This document shows, one piece after another, positions 3,807 to 36,661 of a stretch of DNA of 64,000 bases (position 1 is the stretch's first letter; each line of letters begins with the position of its first letter). The stretch comes from an uncultured Gammaproteobacteria bacterium. GTDB lineage: Bacteria; Patescibacteriota; Microgenomatia; Levybacterales; GWA1-39-11. Under the pieces are notes generated by a model, which saw only the letters and a program-made list of their open reading frames with translations, ran no database searches and was not told the origin of the DNA. The stretch is from positions 96,075 to 160,074 of the forward strand of contig CAYYLC010000003.1 of the NCBI GenBank assembly GCA_964472415.1, read 5' to 3'. A program made the position numbers and the translations under genes.

Positions 3807-4376
3807 TTACGAGCCTGTATGTGTTGATTGCGTGCCTGAGTGCGCAATTGATATGTCTTTGGCGTATGCATCCTCAGCTATCAGTATGCGCTGAACAAGA
3901 TCCTGCCGTAATTCCGATGAAAAATTACCAGAAGAGATTGCTTGGTATGCAGCTTTTATGATAGCCTCAAATGCCTTTTCATGATCTTCGGAGAGATATA
4001 TTCTTCGCTCTACCATTCGTAAGGTTTCATCCCGAGCTCTGCTTACTTGATAATCGTTGTTTGATAGCCAGTCTGGGAAATTACTTACTGTGAAGGAACG
4101 ACCAGGTATCGGAGGTGTGAGAGATGTTTTTAGTATTTTGTCTACTTGGGGCATGATCATGATCCAAAGTAGTACTACTAGCATAGTACCGATAAGATGC
4201 CAGAAAACAAATTCGCTATCTGGCGTGTCTATAATTGTCTTAATTCCGAAGCCACCAAAGAACCATGTCCCTGGAACTATTAGGAAACAGAAGAAGCGTT
4301 TGTTGTTTCTTGCACTTTCTTTTTGCCAATCCATTTGAAGTGATTCAAGTGCACTCATCCTTATTGTTTCTGACAT
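3807..4376 (-). CDS. hypothetical membrane protein (two TM segments plus a cytoplasmic domain)
   Basis: 189-aa ORF with hydrophobic stretches FFCFLIVPGTWFFGGFGI and LIGTMLVVLLWIMIM; followed by a terminator; no recognisable family. Confidence 0.5.
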   Translation of the reverse strand: MSETIRMSALESLQMDWQKESARNNKRFFCFLIVPGTWFFGGFGIKTIIDTPDSEFVFWHLIGTMLVVLLWIMIMPQVDKILKTSLTPPIPGRSFTVSNFPDWLSNNDYQVSRARDETLRMVERRIYLSEDHEKAFEAIIKAAYQAISSGNFSSELRQDLVQRILIAEDAYAKDISIAHSGTQSTHTGS

Positions 4377-24614: not shown

Positions 24615-26564
24615 TTATCCTATCTTTGCTTTCAGTTTTTCCTTGAGGGTTTTTTCTAGCTCTTTTCGGATTGGTGCTACATCTTCATTTGAAAGGTTTT
24701 TCGTTCTATCCTGATAAGTTATGCGGAATGTTTTTTTATTCTCATATTCGTCAATAAGTTCTGTTTTTATAATGAGTTTATTGATAGAAAGGATGGTATC
24801 TACAATTTTTTTGTATGAACTATTATTTTTTATTTCAATTCGAATATCTTCAATTATTGGTGGATATTCCGGAATCGGGATAAATACCTTTTTATTTGTT
24901 GCATGCTGTATTAGTTCAAGAAAATCTAATTCAAAATTTACGACGTCTTCCTCCAGAAGTTCGATATCTCCAATTCGTTTATTCTCGATAAAAATATCTG
25001 CGCCTGCACCACCTTGCTGGCGTGTTCGGAAGTCGTATGAAAAAATGCCAATATCCTCAAGTAATGCCGCAAGAATCCCTTTTAAATCAAAAAACAGTGT
25101 ATCACTACTTTTTTTTATTACTCCGCTAAAATGAGGATTCTCATCGGGAAGCGTGTCAGCCCTCTTTTTATAGATGTTTGCAATCTCAAAAATACTCAGC
25201 GTATCTTGGGGATTTTTTCTTATAACTTCTAAAAGGCTTGGTACGAGAGTGGTCCTCATATATATATGATCTTCTGATAGGGGATTTGAGATTTTAACTG
25301 CTGATTCAAGTGGTCCTTCGAATAATTCTTCAGAAACCATAGAGTATGTATAGACTTCATGAAATCCCCAGTATTTCATCGCATTTTTTACTCTGTTTTC
25401 CCAATAAAATATGCCCTCTTCTATATTTTTTGCTTGCTTATTTGTTATCGGAGGAAGCGAATTGGGAATCTTGTCATATCCATAGATTCTGGCAATTTCC
25501 TCTATGACATCTTCTTCTATTTGGATATCGTTGGCCCTGAAGCTTGGTGGAGTAACATTCCAAGAAGTTTTATTGCCGACAATTTGAAATGAAAGCATGG
25601 TAAGAATTTCTTTGACAGATCTATCAGGAATTGTGGTTCCGATGATATGGTTAATGCGCTCTTTTCGAACAGGTATCTTTGCTGTCTTTATAGGGTTTGG
25701 ATACAGATCTATAATATCTCCAACAATTTTTCCGTCTGCATATTTCCTATAGAGTTCAATTCCTCGTTTGAGAGTAGGTGGAATAAGCTCTGGGTCTACT
25801 CCTTTTTCATTTAGGATTGCAGCTTCAGAACGAAGTTCTAGTGCAAGAGATGTCTTGCGGATTTTTTTTGGACTATTGTTGTTGAGGAATAGTACGATTC
25901 GTTTTGTGGTATTTGTTACAACGCTATTTTCAAGTCCCATAATACCGAGCAGATCTATGATTTCGCCTGATCCATCAATTGCCACAATATCTCCTCCTGG
26001 GAGAACATAAGTTCGCTCATCAAGTGTTTTAATGATTTCACTCTTTTCAGATTCACGAATACTAATTTTTTTGTCTTCAATCCTGTCATAGTCAAATACG
26101 TGCGCGGGGTGTCCAACTTCTCGCATGATGTAGTTCGTGATATCGATGAGATTGTTAAGAGCTCTAATACCGCTTTTCTCAAGCCGATCTTTTATAAAAT
26201 CCGGAGAGTCTTTTACTGTGACATCCATGATTACGGCAGATACTCTATTCGTGAGTTTTTCATCAATTCGAATATCGAGATGAGTACTTTTTTTTGTAGT
26301 TTTAATATTTGTTGGCAATTCTTTGAATTGTGCTGTAAAGCCATTTTGGGGCAATATTGCTGAAAGTTCTCTTGCAAGGCCTACTGCAGACATGAGATCT
26401 ACACGGTTTGTTGTAACTTCTATATCATAAAGAAAATCATTTCCTATTTTTTCTAGACGCTCTACTGAGACGCTTGCGAGAGAAAGATATTTGGAAATAT
26501 CTTTGGGTGTAGCGTTTGTGGTTATGTGATCGCGTAAAAAGCTATCCAAGATTTGTATATTCAT
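24615..26564 (-). CDS. pheT: phenylalanyl-tRNA synthetase beta subunit, short form lacking the N-terminal OB-fold tRNA-binding domain
   Basis: 649 aa; B1, B3/4, B5 and catalytic-like domains recognisable (TNRVDLMSAVGLAREL, ferredoxin-fold anticodon-binding C-terminus). Immediately downstream of pheS. Confidence 0.85.
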   Translation of the reverse strand: MNIQILDSFLRDHITTNATPKDISKYLSLASVSVERLEKIGNDFLYDIEVTTNRVDLMSAVGLARELSAILPQNGFTAQFKELPTNIKTTKKSTHLDIRIDEKLTNRVSAVIMDVTVKDSPDFIKDRLEKSGIRALNNLIDITNYIMREVGHPAHVFDYDRIEDKKISIRESEKSEIIKTLDERTYVLPGGDIVAIDGSGEIIDLLGIMGLENSVVTNTTKRIVLFLNNNSPKKIRKTSLALELRSEAAILNEKGVDPELIPPTLKRGIELYRKYADGKIVGDIIDLYPNPIKTAKIPVRKERINHIIGTTIPDRSVKEILTMLSFQIVGNKTSWNVTPPSFRANDIQIEEDVIEEIARIYGYDKIPNSLPPITNKQAKNIEEGIFYWENRVKNAMKYWGFHEVYTYSMVSEELFEGPLESAVKISNPLSEDHIYMRTTLVPSLLEVIRKNPQDTLSIFEIANIYKKRADTLPDENPHFSGVIKKSSDTLFFDLKGILAALLEDIGIFSYDFRTRQQGGAGADIFIENKRIGDIELLEEDVVNFELDFLELIQHATNKKVFIPIPEYPPIIEDIRIEIKNNSSYKKIVDTILSINKLIIKTELIDEYENKKTFRITYQDRTKNLSNEDVAPIRKELEKTLKEKLKAKIG

Positions 26565-31320: not shown

Positions 31321-31537
31321 AGCATCAGAATTGATTTTATGTGTCTGTTTACTGTAGCTCGATAGAATTCATTATTTATCACCTTTTTTCTTTGAATATT
31401 AAATATTCAATAATCAGAGTGCAAGTAATCTACAGAATACGAATCTCTGGTATTTTAACAGATCGAAATTTATCCGACAATCTTTACTATTTTTAGATAT
31501 CATGTCTTATTTTTTCAGTATTAAGCAATTGCTTTTG

Positions 31538-31565
31538 TTGACACGAGAGATTTTTTTGTTACAAT
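31538..31565 (+). promoter_or_regulatory. near-consensus sigma70-type promoter (TTGACA - 16 nt - TACAAT)
   Basis: ttgaca at 31538-31543 and tacaat at 31560-31565 with a 16-nt spacer, in a 540-bp intergenic region. Confidence 0.5.
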
Positions 31566-31657
31566 AATCTTAATGAGAAAAAATTGTTCATACATGTTCG
31601 GACGCGCCCTAGTGATTACGCACTAGGGAGTTTTCCGTGTGGAATAATTTTTTTATC

Positions 31658-31688
31658 GGAACTCCCTTACAGAAGGGAGTTTTTTTAT
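31658..31688 (+). terminator. rho-independent terminator (plus strand), about 95-115 nt downstream of the 31538 promoter
   Basis: ggaactccctt-acag-aagggagtt followed by tttttttat; an upstream T-run is also present. Confidence 0.55.
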
Positions 31689-31864
31689 GGGATAAAATCC
31701 TATAAGCACTTTGACATATCTTGTGATGATGCTTTGTTCTCCCCGCGTGGGACATAAAAAAGTCTTGCGCTGGGGGAACGAAAGCACAAAAAAGTCACAC
31801 TGATGGGCCGGTGAGAATCGGTAGTAGGCAATATTCGATACGAGAGAGCCAAATTGGAGGAGTT

Positions 31865-32248
31865 ATGTCCACAATGCAAGCAATGGGTATAAAAGCAGTT
31901 GATCTCGAAAGCCTTGTTGTCTTACTGAATGAGCCAAGTATTGTATATGATTTTTCTCAAAGAAAAGGTTTTATTCAGTGGAAAAATAGTTATCGCGTAA
32001 TTCTTCGGCAAAACAGTAATGGGCGAGATTGTCATGTACGCGTGTATCTTCCGGGAATGGAAACGTTGATGGAAGGTGAAACACTCTCTGTGAGAGCAAG
32101 AGGCGACGTACACTTTACTGATATGAAATACTACCGTGATTCGCGATGTTTTTCTGCGAAAGTAATTGGTAGGAATCAGGGCGAGCTCCAGTTCGAATCT
32201 ATAGTTCTTTCAGATCCACTACGCTCTTTCCGTAAGAAAGGGCGATAA
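31865..32248 (+). CDS. hypothetical protein, paralog A of a tandem pair (GC-rich block)
   Basis: ATG at 31865 preceded by ggagg; 127 aa. DCHVRVYLPGMETLMEGETLSVRARG and CFSAKVIGRNQGELQFE align with the neighbouring gene. The ORF-track start at 31811 is probably an extension. Confidence 0.5.
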   Translation: MSTMQAMGIKAVDLESLVVLLNEPSIVYDFSQRKGFIQWKNSYRVILRQNSNGRDCHVRVYLPGMETLMEGETLSVRARGDVHFTDMKYYRDSRCFSAKVIGRNQGELQFESIVLSDPLRSFRKKGR

Positions 32249-32319
32249 AGTCTTATGTTGTTGGGCTGATTTATTCAGTAGCGACCGAGTTTGCGCATAT
32301 AGCGCGAGAGGAGATTGGA

Positions 32320-32769
32320 ATGTCATTAGTCACCGCTCAGACAGAAATCGATTTGGAGAAAGTCGCTTTCAACCTCAACAGGAAGAATCTTTTATATGAT
32401 CTTTCTTCGAATCGGAAAGTAGACTTTACTCTTGATGAGTTCCTTGAGTTTGAGGGAGTGCAGGTGGTAAAGGATGTAAATGATCCTTATCTCTGCCATG
32501 TTCGACTGGTGATCCGGCCTGAATATAAGATGCCTGTAGGCTTCACCCTTGCGGTGAAGATTGGGCCGAGACATCCTATTAGTCGAATGTCCTATTTTCA
32601 TGAGTGGAATAATCTCCATTGCAGGGGGAAGCTGCCGAGAAGCAAAGTAGGAAGCCTCGAATTTGAGGTTGTAGAAACCCATGCAGCGCGGAAGCGCTAC
32701 AATGGACCAGAAGCGTATCAATGCCGCCAGAGGGCGCGCGAGCTTCCGCAATACTCTCATCATTACTAA
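32320..32769 (+). CDS. hypothetical protein, paralog B
   Basis: 149 aa; LCHVRLVIRPEYKMPVGFTLAVKIGP and CRGKLPRSKVGSLEFE align with paralog A (shared DLE, YD(F/L)S, CHVR(V/L), TL(S/A)V(R/K), G(E/S)L(Q/E)FE). Confidence 0.5.
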   Translation: MSLVTAQTEIDLEKVAFNLNRKNLLYDLSSNRKVDFTLDEFLEFEGVQVVKDVNDPYLCHVRLVIRPEYKMPVGFTLAVKIGPRHPISRMSYFHEWNNLHCRGKLPRSKVGSLEFEVVETHAARKRYNGPEAYQCRQRARELPQYSHHY

Positions 32770-32899
32770 CGCGAAAGCGTTTTCATCACAAGATACGTCC
32801 CTTAGGGGATAGGAAGATTTTAGGTAGTGCATCATAAGCACTTTGCACGCTTTTTATGCGCAGCCTTTCATATCTTTCTATCCCCTTCATTCTAAAGCC

Positions 32900-33271
32900 A
32901 TGAAAGAAAGAGAATACATAGAGCCAGATATGCGGATTGTAAATCCGAATAATCCCGCTTGTTCCTTGGATATTTATGCCTACTCGAATTCTCATTTAAA
33001 AAATAGCAATGGAGAAAGGATCCGCGAAAAGGATTTGACTACCCGTTCAGGGGAACTCTATGAAGGAGTAAGTATTGCATTTGGTGCGTGGAATAATCCA
33101 GAATGTGAAAATGAAGATATGAGAGAAAAAGTAGTTCGCTCCGGTTTTGCGCCAGAGCTCCATACTACTCCTCAGGCGATTGACTCAGTTCTTCAGAAGG
33201 CGCGTGTCCTTATGGAAGAGTGTCCGTATAGAGATGGGGCACGGTGTAAGCAGAATTATCGAGAGTCATAG
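32900..33271 (+). CDS. hypothetical protein
   Basis: ORF 32843-33271; start probably MKEREYIEPDMRIV at 32900; acidic and Cys-containing; no recognisable family. Confidence 0.4.
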   Translation: MKEREYIEPDMRIVNPNNPACSLDIYAYSNSHLKNSNGERIREKDLTTRSGELYEGVSIAFGAWNNPECENEDMREKVVRSGFAPELHTTPQAIDSVLQKARVLMEECPYRDGARCKQNYRES

Positions 33272-33466
33272 ATTGTCTTCAATGCCAGGTGCAAGTTCTT
33301 TTGGAGCATATTGGAGCCAGCTATCAAGTTCATTTCTAACTTCTTCTACCAGTCCTGGAGTAGGCTCATGAGGATAGTCTTGAATCCAATCACTTAAAAC
33401 GTCGCGTGCGCTTTCTATTCTTCTGAAGTCTTCAATTTTTTCGTTATGATAGTTTCCTCGTTCCAT
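33266..33466 (-). CDS. hypothetical small acidic protein (66 aa)
   Basis: ORF convergent with and overlapping the end of the previous gene by 6 nt; high coding-like GC3. Confidence 0.3.
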   Translation of the reverse strand: MERGNYHNEKIEDFRRIESARDVLSDWIQDYPHEPTPGLVEEVRNELDSWLQYAPKELAPGIEDNL

Positions 33467-33552
33467 AAGTATAAATAACTTTAATTTTAGGTTTCAAAAA
33501 TCGCGATACTCGTCTTTTAGTAAGTTTTTTTATCCGCGTTTATCAGATTTAT

Positions 33553-35984: not shown

Positions 35985-36527
35985 TTAGATAGTAATTTCT
36001 ACTTCATTTTTAAGAATATCTATATACTCTTTTTCAATAGAATTTATGAAAGAATTTACTCGCACTGCCCACGTAGGAGATTCAGCATAAATTGGCCCAA
36101 TAGTCCATACAGTATCTGCTCCACGGTCATAATACCGAGATTTTAGTGATTGGGTAATCGTATCAATACCATGTTCCCAAGATTCAAAGTAAATATATCC
36201 TCCACCCCACCCATATGCATTATAGGAGTTTGGCATTAGGTGTTTTCCAAATCCAGATTCAAGCCCAGAGATTGCAGGGAGAAGTTTCCAGTCCACGCCA
36301 TTTTTATCAGCAAGTGCAACATATGCTGGAGCAGCTGATTTTAGTGGTGAATTGTATCGCTCGAACACCTTTTCAAGTGCCTGAACGCGGATATCATCAC
36401 GAGGAGCGATCTCGCTTCCAATTGCAAGCTGCGCCGAAGCAGTCTGTTGTAGTTGATGTGCGTTTACCTTTTGCGGCATAAGAATTGCTGCAAAAAGAAT
36501 AATTGCTATGATTACAATTTTTTTCAT
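35985..36527 (-). CDS. secreted glucosaminidase-domain (FlgJ-like) peptidoglycan hydrolase, paralog 1
   Basis: Signal peptide MKKIVIIAIILFAAILMPQKVNA (start at 36527; ORF-track start 36566). LLPAISGLESGFGKH...NAYGWG resembles the glucosaminidase signature (ESGWG...NN(L/Y)FGI). Confidence 0.55.
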   Translation of the reverse strand: MKKIVIIAIILFAAILMPQKVNAHQLQQTASAQLAIGSEIAPRDDIRVQALEKVFERYNSPLKSAAPAYVALADKNGVDWKLLPAISGLESGFGKHLMPNSYNAYGWGGGYIYFESWEHGIDTITQSLKSRYYDRGADTVWTIGPIYAESPTWAVRVNSFINSIEKEYIDILKNEVEITI

Positions 36528-36661
36528 ACAGTGTCCCGTCTCCGGGAAGTTTTTGTAACTGTTCAAGCTTTCTCAGTACATGAAAAAACTTGAGGATTCC
36601 AAAAACTGTATTGGGGAAAAAGTAGAAGGGTCTAAATATAGATTTACTATATTCAGACCAT

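What the first reader, a model, noticed from the sequence alone, without database searches (positions are those of the whole stretch)
31538..31690. Candidate small RNA or leader: a consensus promoter and an intrinsic terminator delimit a ~95-115-nt transcript
TTGACA-16nt-TACAAT at 31538-31565 is the best promoter match in the window. A strong hairpin with a T-run follows at 31658-31690. Between them lie a second hairpin (ccctagtg-attacg-cactaggg) and a possible 17-codon ORF (MRKNCSYMFGRALVITH). The unit sits in a 540-bp gap between tRNA-Val and a GC-rich gene block. It could be a trans-acting sRNA, or a transcription attenuator or leader peptide controlling the downstream paralog genes.
Basis: seen in the sequence. 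Interest (0 to 1): 0.55.

Follow-up and report, generated by a model that had tools for sequence, protein, structure and literature searches.

The report
Leader-peptide transcription attenuator, CPR bacterium
The promoter-hairpin-terminator unit is real and is conserved in related uncultured (Patescibacteria/CPR) bacteria; it looks like a classic "ribosome-sensing" switch, in which translation of a tiny 17-codon gene at the very start of the RNA decides whether transcription stops or runs on into a set of small genes of unknown function.

Summary
TTGACA-16-TGtTACAAT (31538-31565), a 17-codon ORF (31573-31626), an inner hairpin (31607-31628) and a terminator (stem 31658-31683, T7 to 31686) are all present. 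The RNA folds far better than shuffles (z = -7.1).

New points:
- The -10 box ends 7 nt before the ATG, so the ORF would be leaderless.
- GGGAGUUUUCCG (31626-37), which overlaps the stop codon, can pair with the terminator's 5' arm (31657-66). This gives an antiterminator (-18.3 kcal/mol against -14.0 for the terminator).
- A long helix (31575-97 with 31633-57) hides that strand when no ribosome is present.
- Masking a ribosome footprint in silico gives termination with no ribosome, or with a ribosome on the last four codons. It gives antitermination when the ribosome sits on codons 9-14.

Homologous leaders sit at the same syntenic site in relatives (L008, L006, L004, L068, L075). They keep the same promoter-ATG spacing, a sORF of 17 to 23 codons and covarying helices: 24 of 36 pairs change on both sides, 0/500 shuffles.

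Nothing in Rfam matches. The downstream genes are fast-evolving orphans, and the leader peptide has no amino-acid run.

Verdict: a new family of a known kind, the ribosome-dependent (leaderless leader-peptide) transcription attenuator. The inducing signal is unknown. Interest is moderate.

The parts
31538..31543 (+). -35 hexamer TTGACA
   Evidence: The same TTGAC(A/T/G) is found 17 nt upstream of the -10 in 16 of 18 related leaders.
31557..31565 (+). extended -10, TGtTACAAT
31572..31573 (+). inferred transcription start (A), 7-8 nt after the -10, which puts the AUG at the 5' end (leaderless). Inferred, not measured.
   Evidence: The -10 to ATG distance is 7 nt here, and 6-8 nt in 17 of 18 related leaders. 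There is no Shine-Dalgarno before the ATG.
31573..31626 (+). 17-codon leader ORF MRKNCSYMFGRALVITH plus TAG
   Evidence: An ORF is kept in all homologues: MVRNYSNKFIIRLVLWD, MVCNYSIKNTFRFVLGA, MVRNYSIKHFILFTLWG, MVCNYSNIKVTRLAFTGRGE and others. Codons 11-14 are minor codons.
31575..31597 (+). 5' arm of the long outer helix P1 (anti-antiterminator), inside codons 1-9 of the sORF
   Evidence: helix 1: 9 of 14 pairs change on both sides.
31607..31628 (+). inner hairpin CCCTAGTG-ATTACG-CACTAGGG. Its 3' arm holds the stop codon and the first G's of the antiterminator strand.
   Evidence: helix 2: 10 of 11 pairs change on both sides.
31626..31637 (+). antiterminator 5' strand GGGAGTTTTCCG, a near repeat of the terminator's 3' arm
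   Evidence: duplex with the terminator's 5' arm -13.1 kcal/mol, z = -3.3.
31633..31657 (+). 3' arm of the outer helix P1
31657..31668 (+). terminator 5' arm (CGGAACTCCCTT), which pairs either with 31626-37 or with 31673-83
31673..31690 (+). terminator 3' arm AAGGGAGTTTT and the T7 tract. The predicted 3' end gives a ~112-118-nt attenuated RNA.
   Evidence: helix 3: 92.6% of cells paired.
31706..31726 (+). conserved linker GCACTTTGACA...CTTGTGA of the read-through 5' UTR (GCACATTnAnA..CTTTGCGA in relatives); role unknown
31736..31779 (+). second conserved hairpin (18 bp, loop ATAAAAAA) in the read-through 5' UTR, with no T tract; role unknown
   Evidence: 23 consensus pairs, 8 with compensatory change in 6 sequences.
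31857..32248 (+). Shine-Dalgarno GGAGGAG and ORF1 (ATG 31865, 127 aa), the first regulated gene
32320..32769 (+). ORF2 (149 aa), a weak paralogue of ORF1, probably in the same operon

Best explanation
This is a ribosome-dependent (leader-peptide) transcription attenuator whose leader ORF is leaderless.

Proposed mechanism:
1. A sigma-70-type promoter starts the RNA at or 1 nt before AUG 31573. A 70S ribosome can load on the 5' AUG and translate 17 codons.
2. With no ribosome, the 5' half of the sORF pairs with 31633-57 (helix P1). The inner hairpin forms as well. Together they lock up GGGAGUUUUCCG (31626-37).
3. The terminator (31658-83 plus U7) then forms and transcription stops, giving a ~115-nt RNA.
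4. A ribosome that reaches the last codons or the stop codon physically covers 31626-37. The result is the same: termination.
5. A ribosome held within about codons 9-14 (F-G-R-A-L-V; codons 11-14 are rare) opens P1 and the inner hairpin but leaves 31626-37 free. That strand pairs with the terminator's 5' arm (31657-66), and RNA polymerase reads through into ORF1/ORF2 by way of a second conserved hairpin.

Shown here: the sequence elements, the three mutually exclusive structures, their conservation and covariation, and the conserved sORF and promoter geometry.

Inferred: the transcription start, translation of the sORF, the kinetic competition, and the signal. The peptide has no amino-acid run. 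The signal is therefore most likely general slowing of translation or aminoacyl-tRNA shortage, or else an unknown peptide-specific stall.
For: Structure of the window element:
- MFE -47.2 kcal/mol, z = -7.1.
- AGGGAGUUUU occurs twice, at 31625-34 and 31675-84.
- The antiterminator fold of 31621-31671 is -18.3 kcal/mol, against -14.0 for the terminator.

Ribosome-footprint masking of the nascent RNA:
- With no ribosome, the probability that the terminator's 5' arm pairs with the antiterminator strand is 0.00.
- With the A site on codons 9-14 it is 0.98. On codons 15 to stop it is 0.00.
- Four homologues show the same three-state behaviour.

Homologues:
- A homologous leader sits at the same syntenic place and in the same orientation in L008/L009, with 7 compensatory pairs in a two-sequence alignment.
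- Covariance models find more: L006 at 66 bits, E 3e-13; L004; L068; two in L075.
- In a 10-sequence alignment 88.3% of cells are paired against 75.5% in shuffles. 24 of 36 pairs change on both sides against 11.6 in shuffles (0/500), and slid controls give 12 or fewer.

Shared layout across 18 related leaders:
- The promoter is TTGACA-17-TAnnnT.
- The -10 ends 6-8 nt before the ATG.
- The sORF stays open for 13-23 codons.
- A strand complementary to the terminator's 5' arm begins near the stop codon.

Support for translation of such leaderless sORFs:
- Paralogous leaders in the same island of a relative carry obvious regulatory runs with the same leaderless geometry: MKLNQIISIIISS and MITTRFFSFYFTFALRG.
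- Metagenomic leaders with the same antiterminator/terminator logic precede hisS, trpS and pheS.

Other:
- Codons 11-14 of the window sORF are minor codons, 0.11-0.17 of synonymous usage.
- The main genes here use strong SD sites while the sORF has none.
Against: - There are no expression data: the transcription start, the terminated RNA and translation of the sORF are all inferred.
- The leader peptide has no run of any amino acid. The regulated genes are neither biosynthetic nor aaRS genes, so the signal is unknown.
- At equilibrium the terminator wins for every ribosome position. Antitermination works only as a kinetic, co-transcriptional choice, as in classical attenuators.
- Much of the sORF lies inside conserved helices, so its conservation cannot be cleanly separated from RNA-structure constraint. 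The rare codons may simply reflect the GC-rich hairpin.
- The covariation counts come from model-fitted alignments of related sequences, which lean towards the structure.
Confidence: 0.7

Rival explanations
1. A translation-independent attenuator. The same terminator/antiterminator switch is flipped by a protein, a small ligand or another RNA that opens or stabilises helix P1, and the sORF is incidental.
For: - There is no amino-acid run in the peptide.
- P1 and the inner hairpin are the most strongly covarying parts.
- A further conserved linker and hairpin lie downstream and could be a protein-binding site.
- PyrR-site and Phe_leader models give only weak sub-threshold Rfam hits.
Against: - An ATG sits 6-8 nt after the -10 box in 17 of 18 leaders, and the frame stays open for 13-23 codons in all 18, ending next to the antiterminator strand. 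Chance alone would rarely keep such a frame open in AT-rich sequence.
- Sister leaders carry Ile and Phe runs.
- Conserved bases lie mostly in helices, with no conserved unpaired core typical of an aptamer.
- No Rfam riboswitch or T-box match at E <= 10.
Confidence: 0.12
2. A stand-alone, trans-acting small RNA of about 115 nt. Promoter and terminator simply delimit the gene, and the downstream genes have their own control.
For: - The default predicted outcome is termination, so a discrete, very stable ~115-nt RNA should accumulate.
- Attenuator-derived RNAs can act in trans; rnTrpL of Sinorhizobium is a precedent (PMC6614838, abstract seen).
Against: - The conserved antiterminator has no purpose in a pure sRNA.
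- In every relative the unit is co-oriented with, and directly followed by, a conserved 5'-UTR hairpin and a gene of the same family. No convincing second promoter lies between them.
- No second copy and no complementary target was seen in the window.
Confidence: 0.1
3. The 17-codon ORF is a small-protein gene in its own right (a functional micropeptide), and the hairpins only stabilise and terminate its mRNA.
For: - The N-terminus M-x-(R/C/K)-N-x-S is conserved beyond what pairing requires. AGA is unpaired in the L008 fold.
- Leader peptides can have trans functions; peTrpL is a precedent (PMC7298713, abstract seen).
Against: - The C-terminal half of the peptide is poorly conserved and its length varies from 16 to 23 residues.
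- This reading does not explain the antiterminator or the ribosome-position logic.
Confidence: 0.05

Closest known systems
Classical leader-peptide transcription attenuators of Proteobacteria (trpL, hisL, pheL/pheM, thrL, ilv leaders; Rfam Trp/His/Phe/Thr/Leu_leader)
   Same: - A short ORF lies just after the promoter.
- Three overlapping structures are present: anti-antiterminator, antiterminator and intrinsic terminator.
- The stop codon sits next to the antiterminator strand.
- Termination is the outcome both without translation and with unhindered translation.
   Different: - The sORF has no Shine-Dalgarno and begins at the predicted 5' end.
- There is no run of regulatory codons.
- The regulated genes are orphan small proteins, not biosynthetic or aaRS genes.
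- Sequence and structure do not match the Rfam models (Phe_leader 24.7 bits against a gathering score of 55).
Leaderless leader peptides predicted for transcription attenuation in Deinococcus deserti (PMC4007540)
   Same: The leader peptide's AUG is at, or 1 nt from, the mapped transcription start. Fourteen such leaders were proposed to control downstream genes by attenuation.
   Different: [quoted passage not shown]
- Their starts were mapped by dRNA-seq. Here the start is inferred, the signal is unknown and the lineage is CPR.
Polycysteine leaderless sORF attenuators of mycobacteria (bioRxiv 10.1101/834739)
   Same: A leaderless sORF is the first cistron. Ribosome stalling in the sORF remodels the downstream RNA structure and switches on the operon.
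   Different: [quoted passage not shown]
- Here an intrinsic terminator is the output, and there is no Cys run.
Ribosome-mediated attenuators without amino-acid runs (for example bmrB-bmrCD, mef/mel, erm and cat leaders)
   Same: The leader peptide has no obvious codon run. Read-through depends on where the ribosome stalls (titles and abstracts; details from general knowledge).
   Different: Those sense ribosome-targeting antibiotics and control resistance genes. No such link is visible here.

Membership tests
Ribosome-dependent (leader-peptide) transcription attenuator | Short ORF immediately downstream of the promoter, conserved as an open frame | tested here: met
   The window has a 17-codon ORF at 31573-31626. 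All 18 related leaders keep an ORF of 13-23 codons starting at the same place relative to the -10.
Ribosome-dependent (leader-peptide) transcription attenuator | Intrinsic terminator between the sORF and the structural genes | tested here: met
   An 11-bp stem (9-bp core plus two G-U pairs) and a U7 tract at 31658-31686, about -14 kcal/mol. It is conserved with compensatory changes.
Ribosome-dependent (leader-peptide) transcription attenuator | Antiterminator that uses the terminator's 5' arm and is mutually exclusive with the terminator | tested here: met
   31626-37 pairs with 31657-66 (-18.3 kcal/mol for the whole alternative fold). An equivalent strand is found in the other 17 leaders, clearly beyond shuffled controls in most (z -1.0 to -5.0).
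Ribosome-dependent (leader-peptide) transcription attenuator | Anti-antiterminator overlapping the sORF, so that ribosome position selects the structure | tested here: met
   In-silico footprint masking gives the three expected states in the window and in four homologues. The test is computational only.
Ribosome-dependent (leader-peptide) transcription attenuator | Run of codons for the sensed amino acid in the stall region | tested here: not met
   MRKNCSYMFGRALVITH has 15 different residues and no run. Sister leaders in relatives do carry Ile, Phe or Leu runs.
Ribosome-dependent (leader-peptide) transcription attenuator | Regulated genes functionally tied to the sensed amino acid | tested here: not met
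   ORF1 and ORF2 have no homologues outside this species in 5.8e9 and 1.84e9 protein libraries. There are no Pfam, PDB or PHROG matches.
Ribosome-dependent (leader-peptide) transcription attenuator | A discrete terminated transcript, and read-through induced by ribosome stalling | not testable with these tools
   No transcriptome or experimental data are available.
Leaderless mRNA | Transcription start at, or within 1-2 nt of, the start codon | not testable with these tools
   Inferred from the 7-nt gap between the -10 and the ATG and the absence of an SD. 5'-end mapping is needed.
Rfam Phe_leader (RF01859) and other Rfam families | Score at or above the family's gathering threshold | tested here: not met
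   Phe_leader scores 24.7 bits against a gathering score of 55 (E 0.11). Nothing but tRNAs reaches gathering score in the window, and nothing but tRNAs and an antisense-tRNA match is found at E <= 0.1 in four relatives' loci.
Riboswitch / T-box | Conserved ligand- or tRNA-binding core with conserved unpaired nucleotides | tested here: inconclusive
   There are no Rfam matches. Conserved bases lie mainly in helices and interior loops vary. With so few sequences, absence of a binding core cannot be proven.
Trans-acting sRNA | Independent transcript with target complementarity and a function in trans | not tested
   No second copy and no extended complementarity was found in the window. The rest of the genome was not available.

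The most novel reading that the evidence does not exclude
The unit may be one of a paralogous set of leaderless leader-peptide attenuators: the window type, a Leu-rich type, and Ile- and Phe-run types.

In Levybacteria-like CPR bacteria these leaders gate a hypervariable island of small, fast-evolving genes lying between tRNA-Val and the DUF5660/trigger-factor genes. The window-type leader, with 15 different amino acids and a cluster of rare codons in the stall region, would act as a generalist sensor of aminoacyl-tRNA shortage or translation stress.

The orphan island genes would then form a starvation-induced programme, for example host interaction or nutrient acquisition, in organisms that cannot make their own amino acids.
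Probability: 0.25. Interest if true: 0.7.

Novelty: new member of a known kind. Interest (0 to 1): 0.5.

Why it matters
Gene regulation in CPR/Patescibacteria is almost unexplored, because nearly all of these bacteria are uncultured and most of their small genes have no annotation.

This locus shows a complete, conserved ribosome-sensing attenuator with a leaderless leader ORF. It is not in Rfam, and I found no paper on leader-peptide attenuation in these bacteria in the held library.

It also shows that the leader and its paralogues control a fast-evolving island of orphan genes. That gives a handle on when these unknown genes are expressed: when translation stalls. It also supplies a covariance model for finding more such leaders, and argues that leaderless translation is used for regulation in this lineage.

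It is not a new principle. The same kind of switch has been known since the trp operon, and leaderless versions are described in Deinococcus and mycobacteria.

Tried and rejected
RNA family and DNA similarity searches
- Rfam at gathering and at permissive thresholds found only tRNAs and sub-threshold noise.
- blastn of the spacer and island against relatives' loci found only the tRNA. The homologous leader was found by eye and then by covariance models.
- A self-blast of the window found no second copy.
- blastn of the island against phage genomes found no match.

Database scans
- The genome-contig scan with the HD protein gave one non-syntenic 38% hit.
- A viral-contig scan with the antiterminator/terminator pattern gave one unrelated hit.

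Downstream proteins (ORF1 and ORF2)
- The protein searches returned only self hits and a frameshifted copy.
- A faint 4-stretch match to a 3638-aa protein (P0124, E 1.8e-6) was not informative.
- AlphaFold gave pLDDT 51, too low to use, so no fold search was run.
- Pfam, PHROGs and a PDB profile search found nothing.

Folding and codon content
- Equilibrium folding with ribosome masks always keeps the terminator. The argument therefore rests on folding the nascent RNA before the terminator's 3' arm exists.
- High amino-acid diversity of the peptide (15 kinds in 17 residues, p about 0.006 under proteome composition) is suggestive only. The homologues have 12-15 kinds.

Other candidate features
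- A window-wide scan for other promoter / leaderless-sORF / terminator units gave one candidate, at 24815. It lies inside pheT and is spurious.
- The second TTGACA at 31711 was considered as an internal promoter and rejected. No relative has a usable -10 at 16-18 nt.

Full report
CONTEXT

The window comes from an AT-rich genome. The gene order around the finding is pheT-pheS-NUDIX-rplT-rpmI-infC-thrS-DUF5665-HD hydrolase-tRNA-Val | spacer and small genes | DUF5660-trigger factor.

Homologues of the HD protein are named Levybacteria / Moraniibacteriota / Patescibacteria by their sources. The organism is therefore a CPR (Patescibacteria) bacterium, probably Levybacteria-like. This is inferred from those names and from synteny.

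The same locus is 100% identical in contigs from two ENA samples.

OBSERVATION

- Promoter TTGACA (31538-43), 16-nt spacer, TACAAT (31560-65) with an upstream TG. It scores 11/12 and ties with four other sites in the window.
- Hairpin 31607-31628.
- Terminator stem 31658-68 / 31673-83 with T7 at 31680-86.
- ORF ATG 31573 to TAG 31624-26, coding MRKNCSYMFGRALVITH.
- A 544-bp gap between tRNA-Val and the next gene.

The 122-nt RNA folds to -47.2 kcal/mol against -25.2 +/- 3.1 for shuffles (z = -7.1). The whole 300-nt 5' region has z = -7.4.

1. The -10 ends 7 nt before the ATG and there is no Shine-Dalgarno. The sORF would therefore sit at the 5' end of the RNA, that is, be leaderless. The main genes have strong SD sites (GGAGGAG before ORF1).

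2. AGGGAGUUUU occurs twice, at 31625-34 and 31675-84. The first copy overlaps the stop codon (cacTAGGGAG). It can pair with the terminator's 5' arm CGGAACUCCC (31657-66).

3. A long helix pairs codons 1-9 of the sORF (31575-97) with 31633-57. It encloses the inner hairpin.

These make three mutually exclusive structures. Energies are P1 plus inner hairpin -33.7, antiterminator fold -18.3, and terminator -14.0 kcal/mol.

RIBOSOME-POSITION TEST (IN SILICO)

I folded the nascent RNA up to 31671, before the terminator's 3' arm exists, with a 28-nt footprint masked around each A-site codon. The readout is the probability that the terminator's 5' arm is captured by the antiterminator strand:
- no ribosome: 0.00
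- A site on codons 9-14 (F G R A L V): 0.98
- A site on codons 15-17 and the stop: 0.00

With the full RNA at equilibrium the terminator always wins. The choice must therefore be kinetic, as in classical attenuators.

Codons 11-14 (CGC GCC CUA GUG) are minor codons in this genome, at 0.11-0.17 of synonymous usage. The GC-rich hairpin could explain that too.

CONSERVATION

The nearest relatives in the databases have HD proteins only 59-71% identical. They keep the synteny, but the block between DUF5660 and tRNA-Val differs completely at the DNA level; blastn finds only the tRNA.

Reading L008 on the window's orientation showed a homologous leader:
- TTGACA-17-TAGCAT-7 nt-ATG;
- sORF MVRNYSNKFIIRLVLWD, again 17 codons;
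- stop inside CTAGGGGAGTT;
- inner hairpin CCTAGTCC/GGACTAGG;
- the long outer helix with a different sequence;
- terminator AACTCCC..GGGAGTTTTTTT.

The two-sequence consensus has 36 pairs, 7 of them compensatory. L008 folds with z = -8.3.

A covariance model built from these two sequences, and then one built from five, found further copies. All are on the same strand relative to the flanking genes.

More distant, divergently transcribed paralogues occur in L004, L006, L008, L010, L068, L070, L072 and L077.

On a 10-sequence model-based alignment:
- 88.3% of cells pair, against 75.5% in shuffles (0/500);
- 24 of 36 pairs change on both sides, against 11.6 in shuffles (0/500);
- slid registers give 12 or fewer;
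- all three helices covary (9/14, 10/11 and 5/11 pairs).

The caveat is that this alignment is fitted to the model and the sequences are related.

Across the 18 leaders:
- -35 and -10 boxes are near consensus.
- The -10 ends 6-8 nt before the ATG in 17 of them.
- The sORF is open for 13-23 codons.
- A strand complementary to the terminator's 5' arm starts between -20 and +11 nt of the stop codon, mostly 0 to +10.

The ribosome-mask behaviour is reproduced in four homologues.

EVIDENCE THAT SUCH LEADERLESS sORFS ARE TRANSLATED IN THIS LINEAGE

In L006, two further leaders of the same geometry in the same island encode MKLNQIISIIISS and MITTRFFSFYFTFALRG. The divergent paralogues are Leu-rich, for example MNRNLLLTLELLLLGEA. 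Runs like these make sense only if read by ribosomes.

A metagenome scan for the antiterminator/terminator logic returned many classical leader peptides:
- His runs upstream of a histidyl-tRNA synthetase;
- Trp upstream of a class-I W/Y synthetase;
- Phe upstream of pheS.

Some of these have the same -10-to-ATG spacing (L048, L056, L060, L013).

WHAT IS REGULATED

ORF1 (127 aa) and ORF2 (149 aa) are weak paralogues (E 3e-5). They have no homologues outside this species in two very large protein libraries. They have no Pfam, PDB or PHROG match and only a low-confidence all-beta model.

The genes that follow the homologous leaders in relatives look like remote, fast-evolving relatives of ORF1 and ORF2. 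They share a G-x-x-C-x-V motif, a beta-rich core and a basic C-terminal tail. I judged this by eye and could not test it statistically.

Between the terminator and ORF1, a linker (GCACATTnAnA..CTTTGCGA) and a second 18-bp hairpin (31736-31779) are conserved with compensatory changes. Their role is unknown.

INTERPRETATION

The best explanation is a ribosome-dependent transcription attenuator with a leaderless leader ORF (confidence 0.7).

Shown: the elements, the alternative pairings, and their conservation and covariation.

Inferred: the start site, translation, the kinetic choice and the signal.

The window's peptide has no amino-acid run and contains 15 kinds of residue. The likeliest signals are therefore general translation slowing or aminoacyl-tRNA shortage, or a peptide-specific stall.

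Rivals:
- a factor-dependent attenuator that does not need translation (0.12);
- a purely trans-acting sRNA (0.10);
- a functional micropeptide gene (0.05).

COMPARISON WITH KNOWN SYSTEMS

It works like the trp/his/phe leaders. Leaderless leader peptides have been proposed for Deinococcus deserti (PMC4007540). Leaderless sensory sORFs have been demonstrated in mycobacteria, although there the control is translational (10.1101/834739).

It is not a member of any Rfam family. It fails two classical criteria: a codon run, and cognate downstream genes. It meets the four structural ones.

I found no report of leader-peptide attenuation in Patescibacteria in the held literature.

VERDICT

It is a new member of a known kind. 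Interest is moderate (0.5), mainly because it ties a testable regulatory signal to a hypervariable island of unknown genes in CPR bacteria.

Noticed in passing
window 31706-31779: After the attenuator's terminator, the read-through 5' UTR holds a conserved linker (GCACTTTGACA..CTTGTGA; GCACATTnAnA..CTTTGCGA in relatives) and an 18-bp hairpin with no T tract. The hairpin is conserved with 8 compensatory pairs in 6 sequences. Its function is unknown; it could be a processing site, a stability element or a protein-binding site.
   Followed up: partly
L004 3554-3706(+), L010 4247-4397(+), L006 3790-3950(+), L068 2014-2128(+), L070 69-182(+), L008 ~4088-4240(+): In relatives, a second paralogous type of leaderless leader-peptide attenuator is transcribed divergently from the window-type leader. 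Its peptides are Leu-rich (MQRILSNKLLQRVLLGL, MNRNLLLTLELLLLGEA and others). It precedes 77-89-aa genes with an 'EEAG.DPR' motif. This unit is absent from the window.
   Followed up: partly
L006 2024-2147(+) and 4188-4350(+): Leaderless leaders with clear Ile (MKLNQIISIIISS) and Phe (MITTRFFSFYFTFALRG) runs precede 114-aa and 134-aa genes with no Pfam match. These are not aaRS or biosynthetic genes. Amino-acid-sensing attenuators seem to control unknown island genes in these bacteria.
   Followed up: partly
L048 (His leader, hisS), L033 (Trp leader, trpS-type), L034 and L020 (Phe leaders after rplT, pheS), L015 (MLLLTTTTTSSA), L056/L060 (..LKVVVLSPY): The metagenome pattern scan picked up many leader-peptide attenuators upstream of aminoacyl-tRNA synthetase genes. 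Several have the -10 box 7-8 nt before the ATG. The PheS of L034 resembles the window's PheS.
   Followed up: partly
window 31321-33552 compared with L004, L006, L008, L010, L068, L072, L075, L077: The block between tRNA-Val and the DUF5660/trigger-factor genes is hypervariable among otherwise syntenic relatives (0.8-3 kb). It is filled with small genes that have no detectable homologues.
   Followed up: partly
window 32320-32769(+) against 32392-32841(-): The public gene call on the source contig (L001) annotates a 147-aa minus-strand ORF here. The plus-strand ORF2 has an SD and is a paralogue of ORF1, so the public call is probably on the wrong strand.
   Followed up: partly
window ~31950-31975 (ORF1); protein P0123: A database protein from the same species matches ORF1 residues 4-35 and then diverges. 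This is consistent with a 1-nt deletion in the TTTT run of 'GGTTTTATT'. It is either a homopolymer sequencing error or a natural frameshift variant of ORF1.
   Followed up: no
window 36736-36662 (minus strand): Another near-consensus promoter (TTGACA-17-TGaTACAAT) is followed within about 10 nt by a strong hairpin GGTCCTAAGGTAG..CTACTTTAGGA plus T7 (-15.7 kcal/mol). It lies upstream of the 193-aa gene 35985..36566. There is no sORF; it may be a very short transcript or a different kind of attenuator.
   Followed up: no
window 28045-28013 (minus strand): A strong terminator-like hairpin AAACCTCCCTAAGGGAGGTTT plus a T run lies between rplT and the NUDIX-pheS genes. Its stem is the same CCTCCC/GGGAGG stem used by the relatives' leaders. 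There is no room for a Phe leader here, unlike in some relatives.
   Followed up: no
L004 2636-3112(-), L068 900-1328(-), L075 2700-3197(-) and 3504-3917(-), window ORF2 C-terminus: The larger island proteins end in an Arg/Lys-rich tail followed by an aromatic motif (..GHGYALA, ..GYSYALS, ..WHFYAPSR, ..YGGYGLCG, ..QYSHHY). No known domain matches. This is a possible shared targeting or nucleic-acid-binding tail.
   Followed up: no
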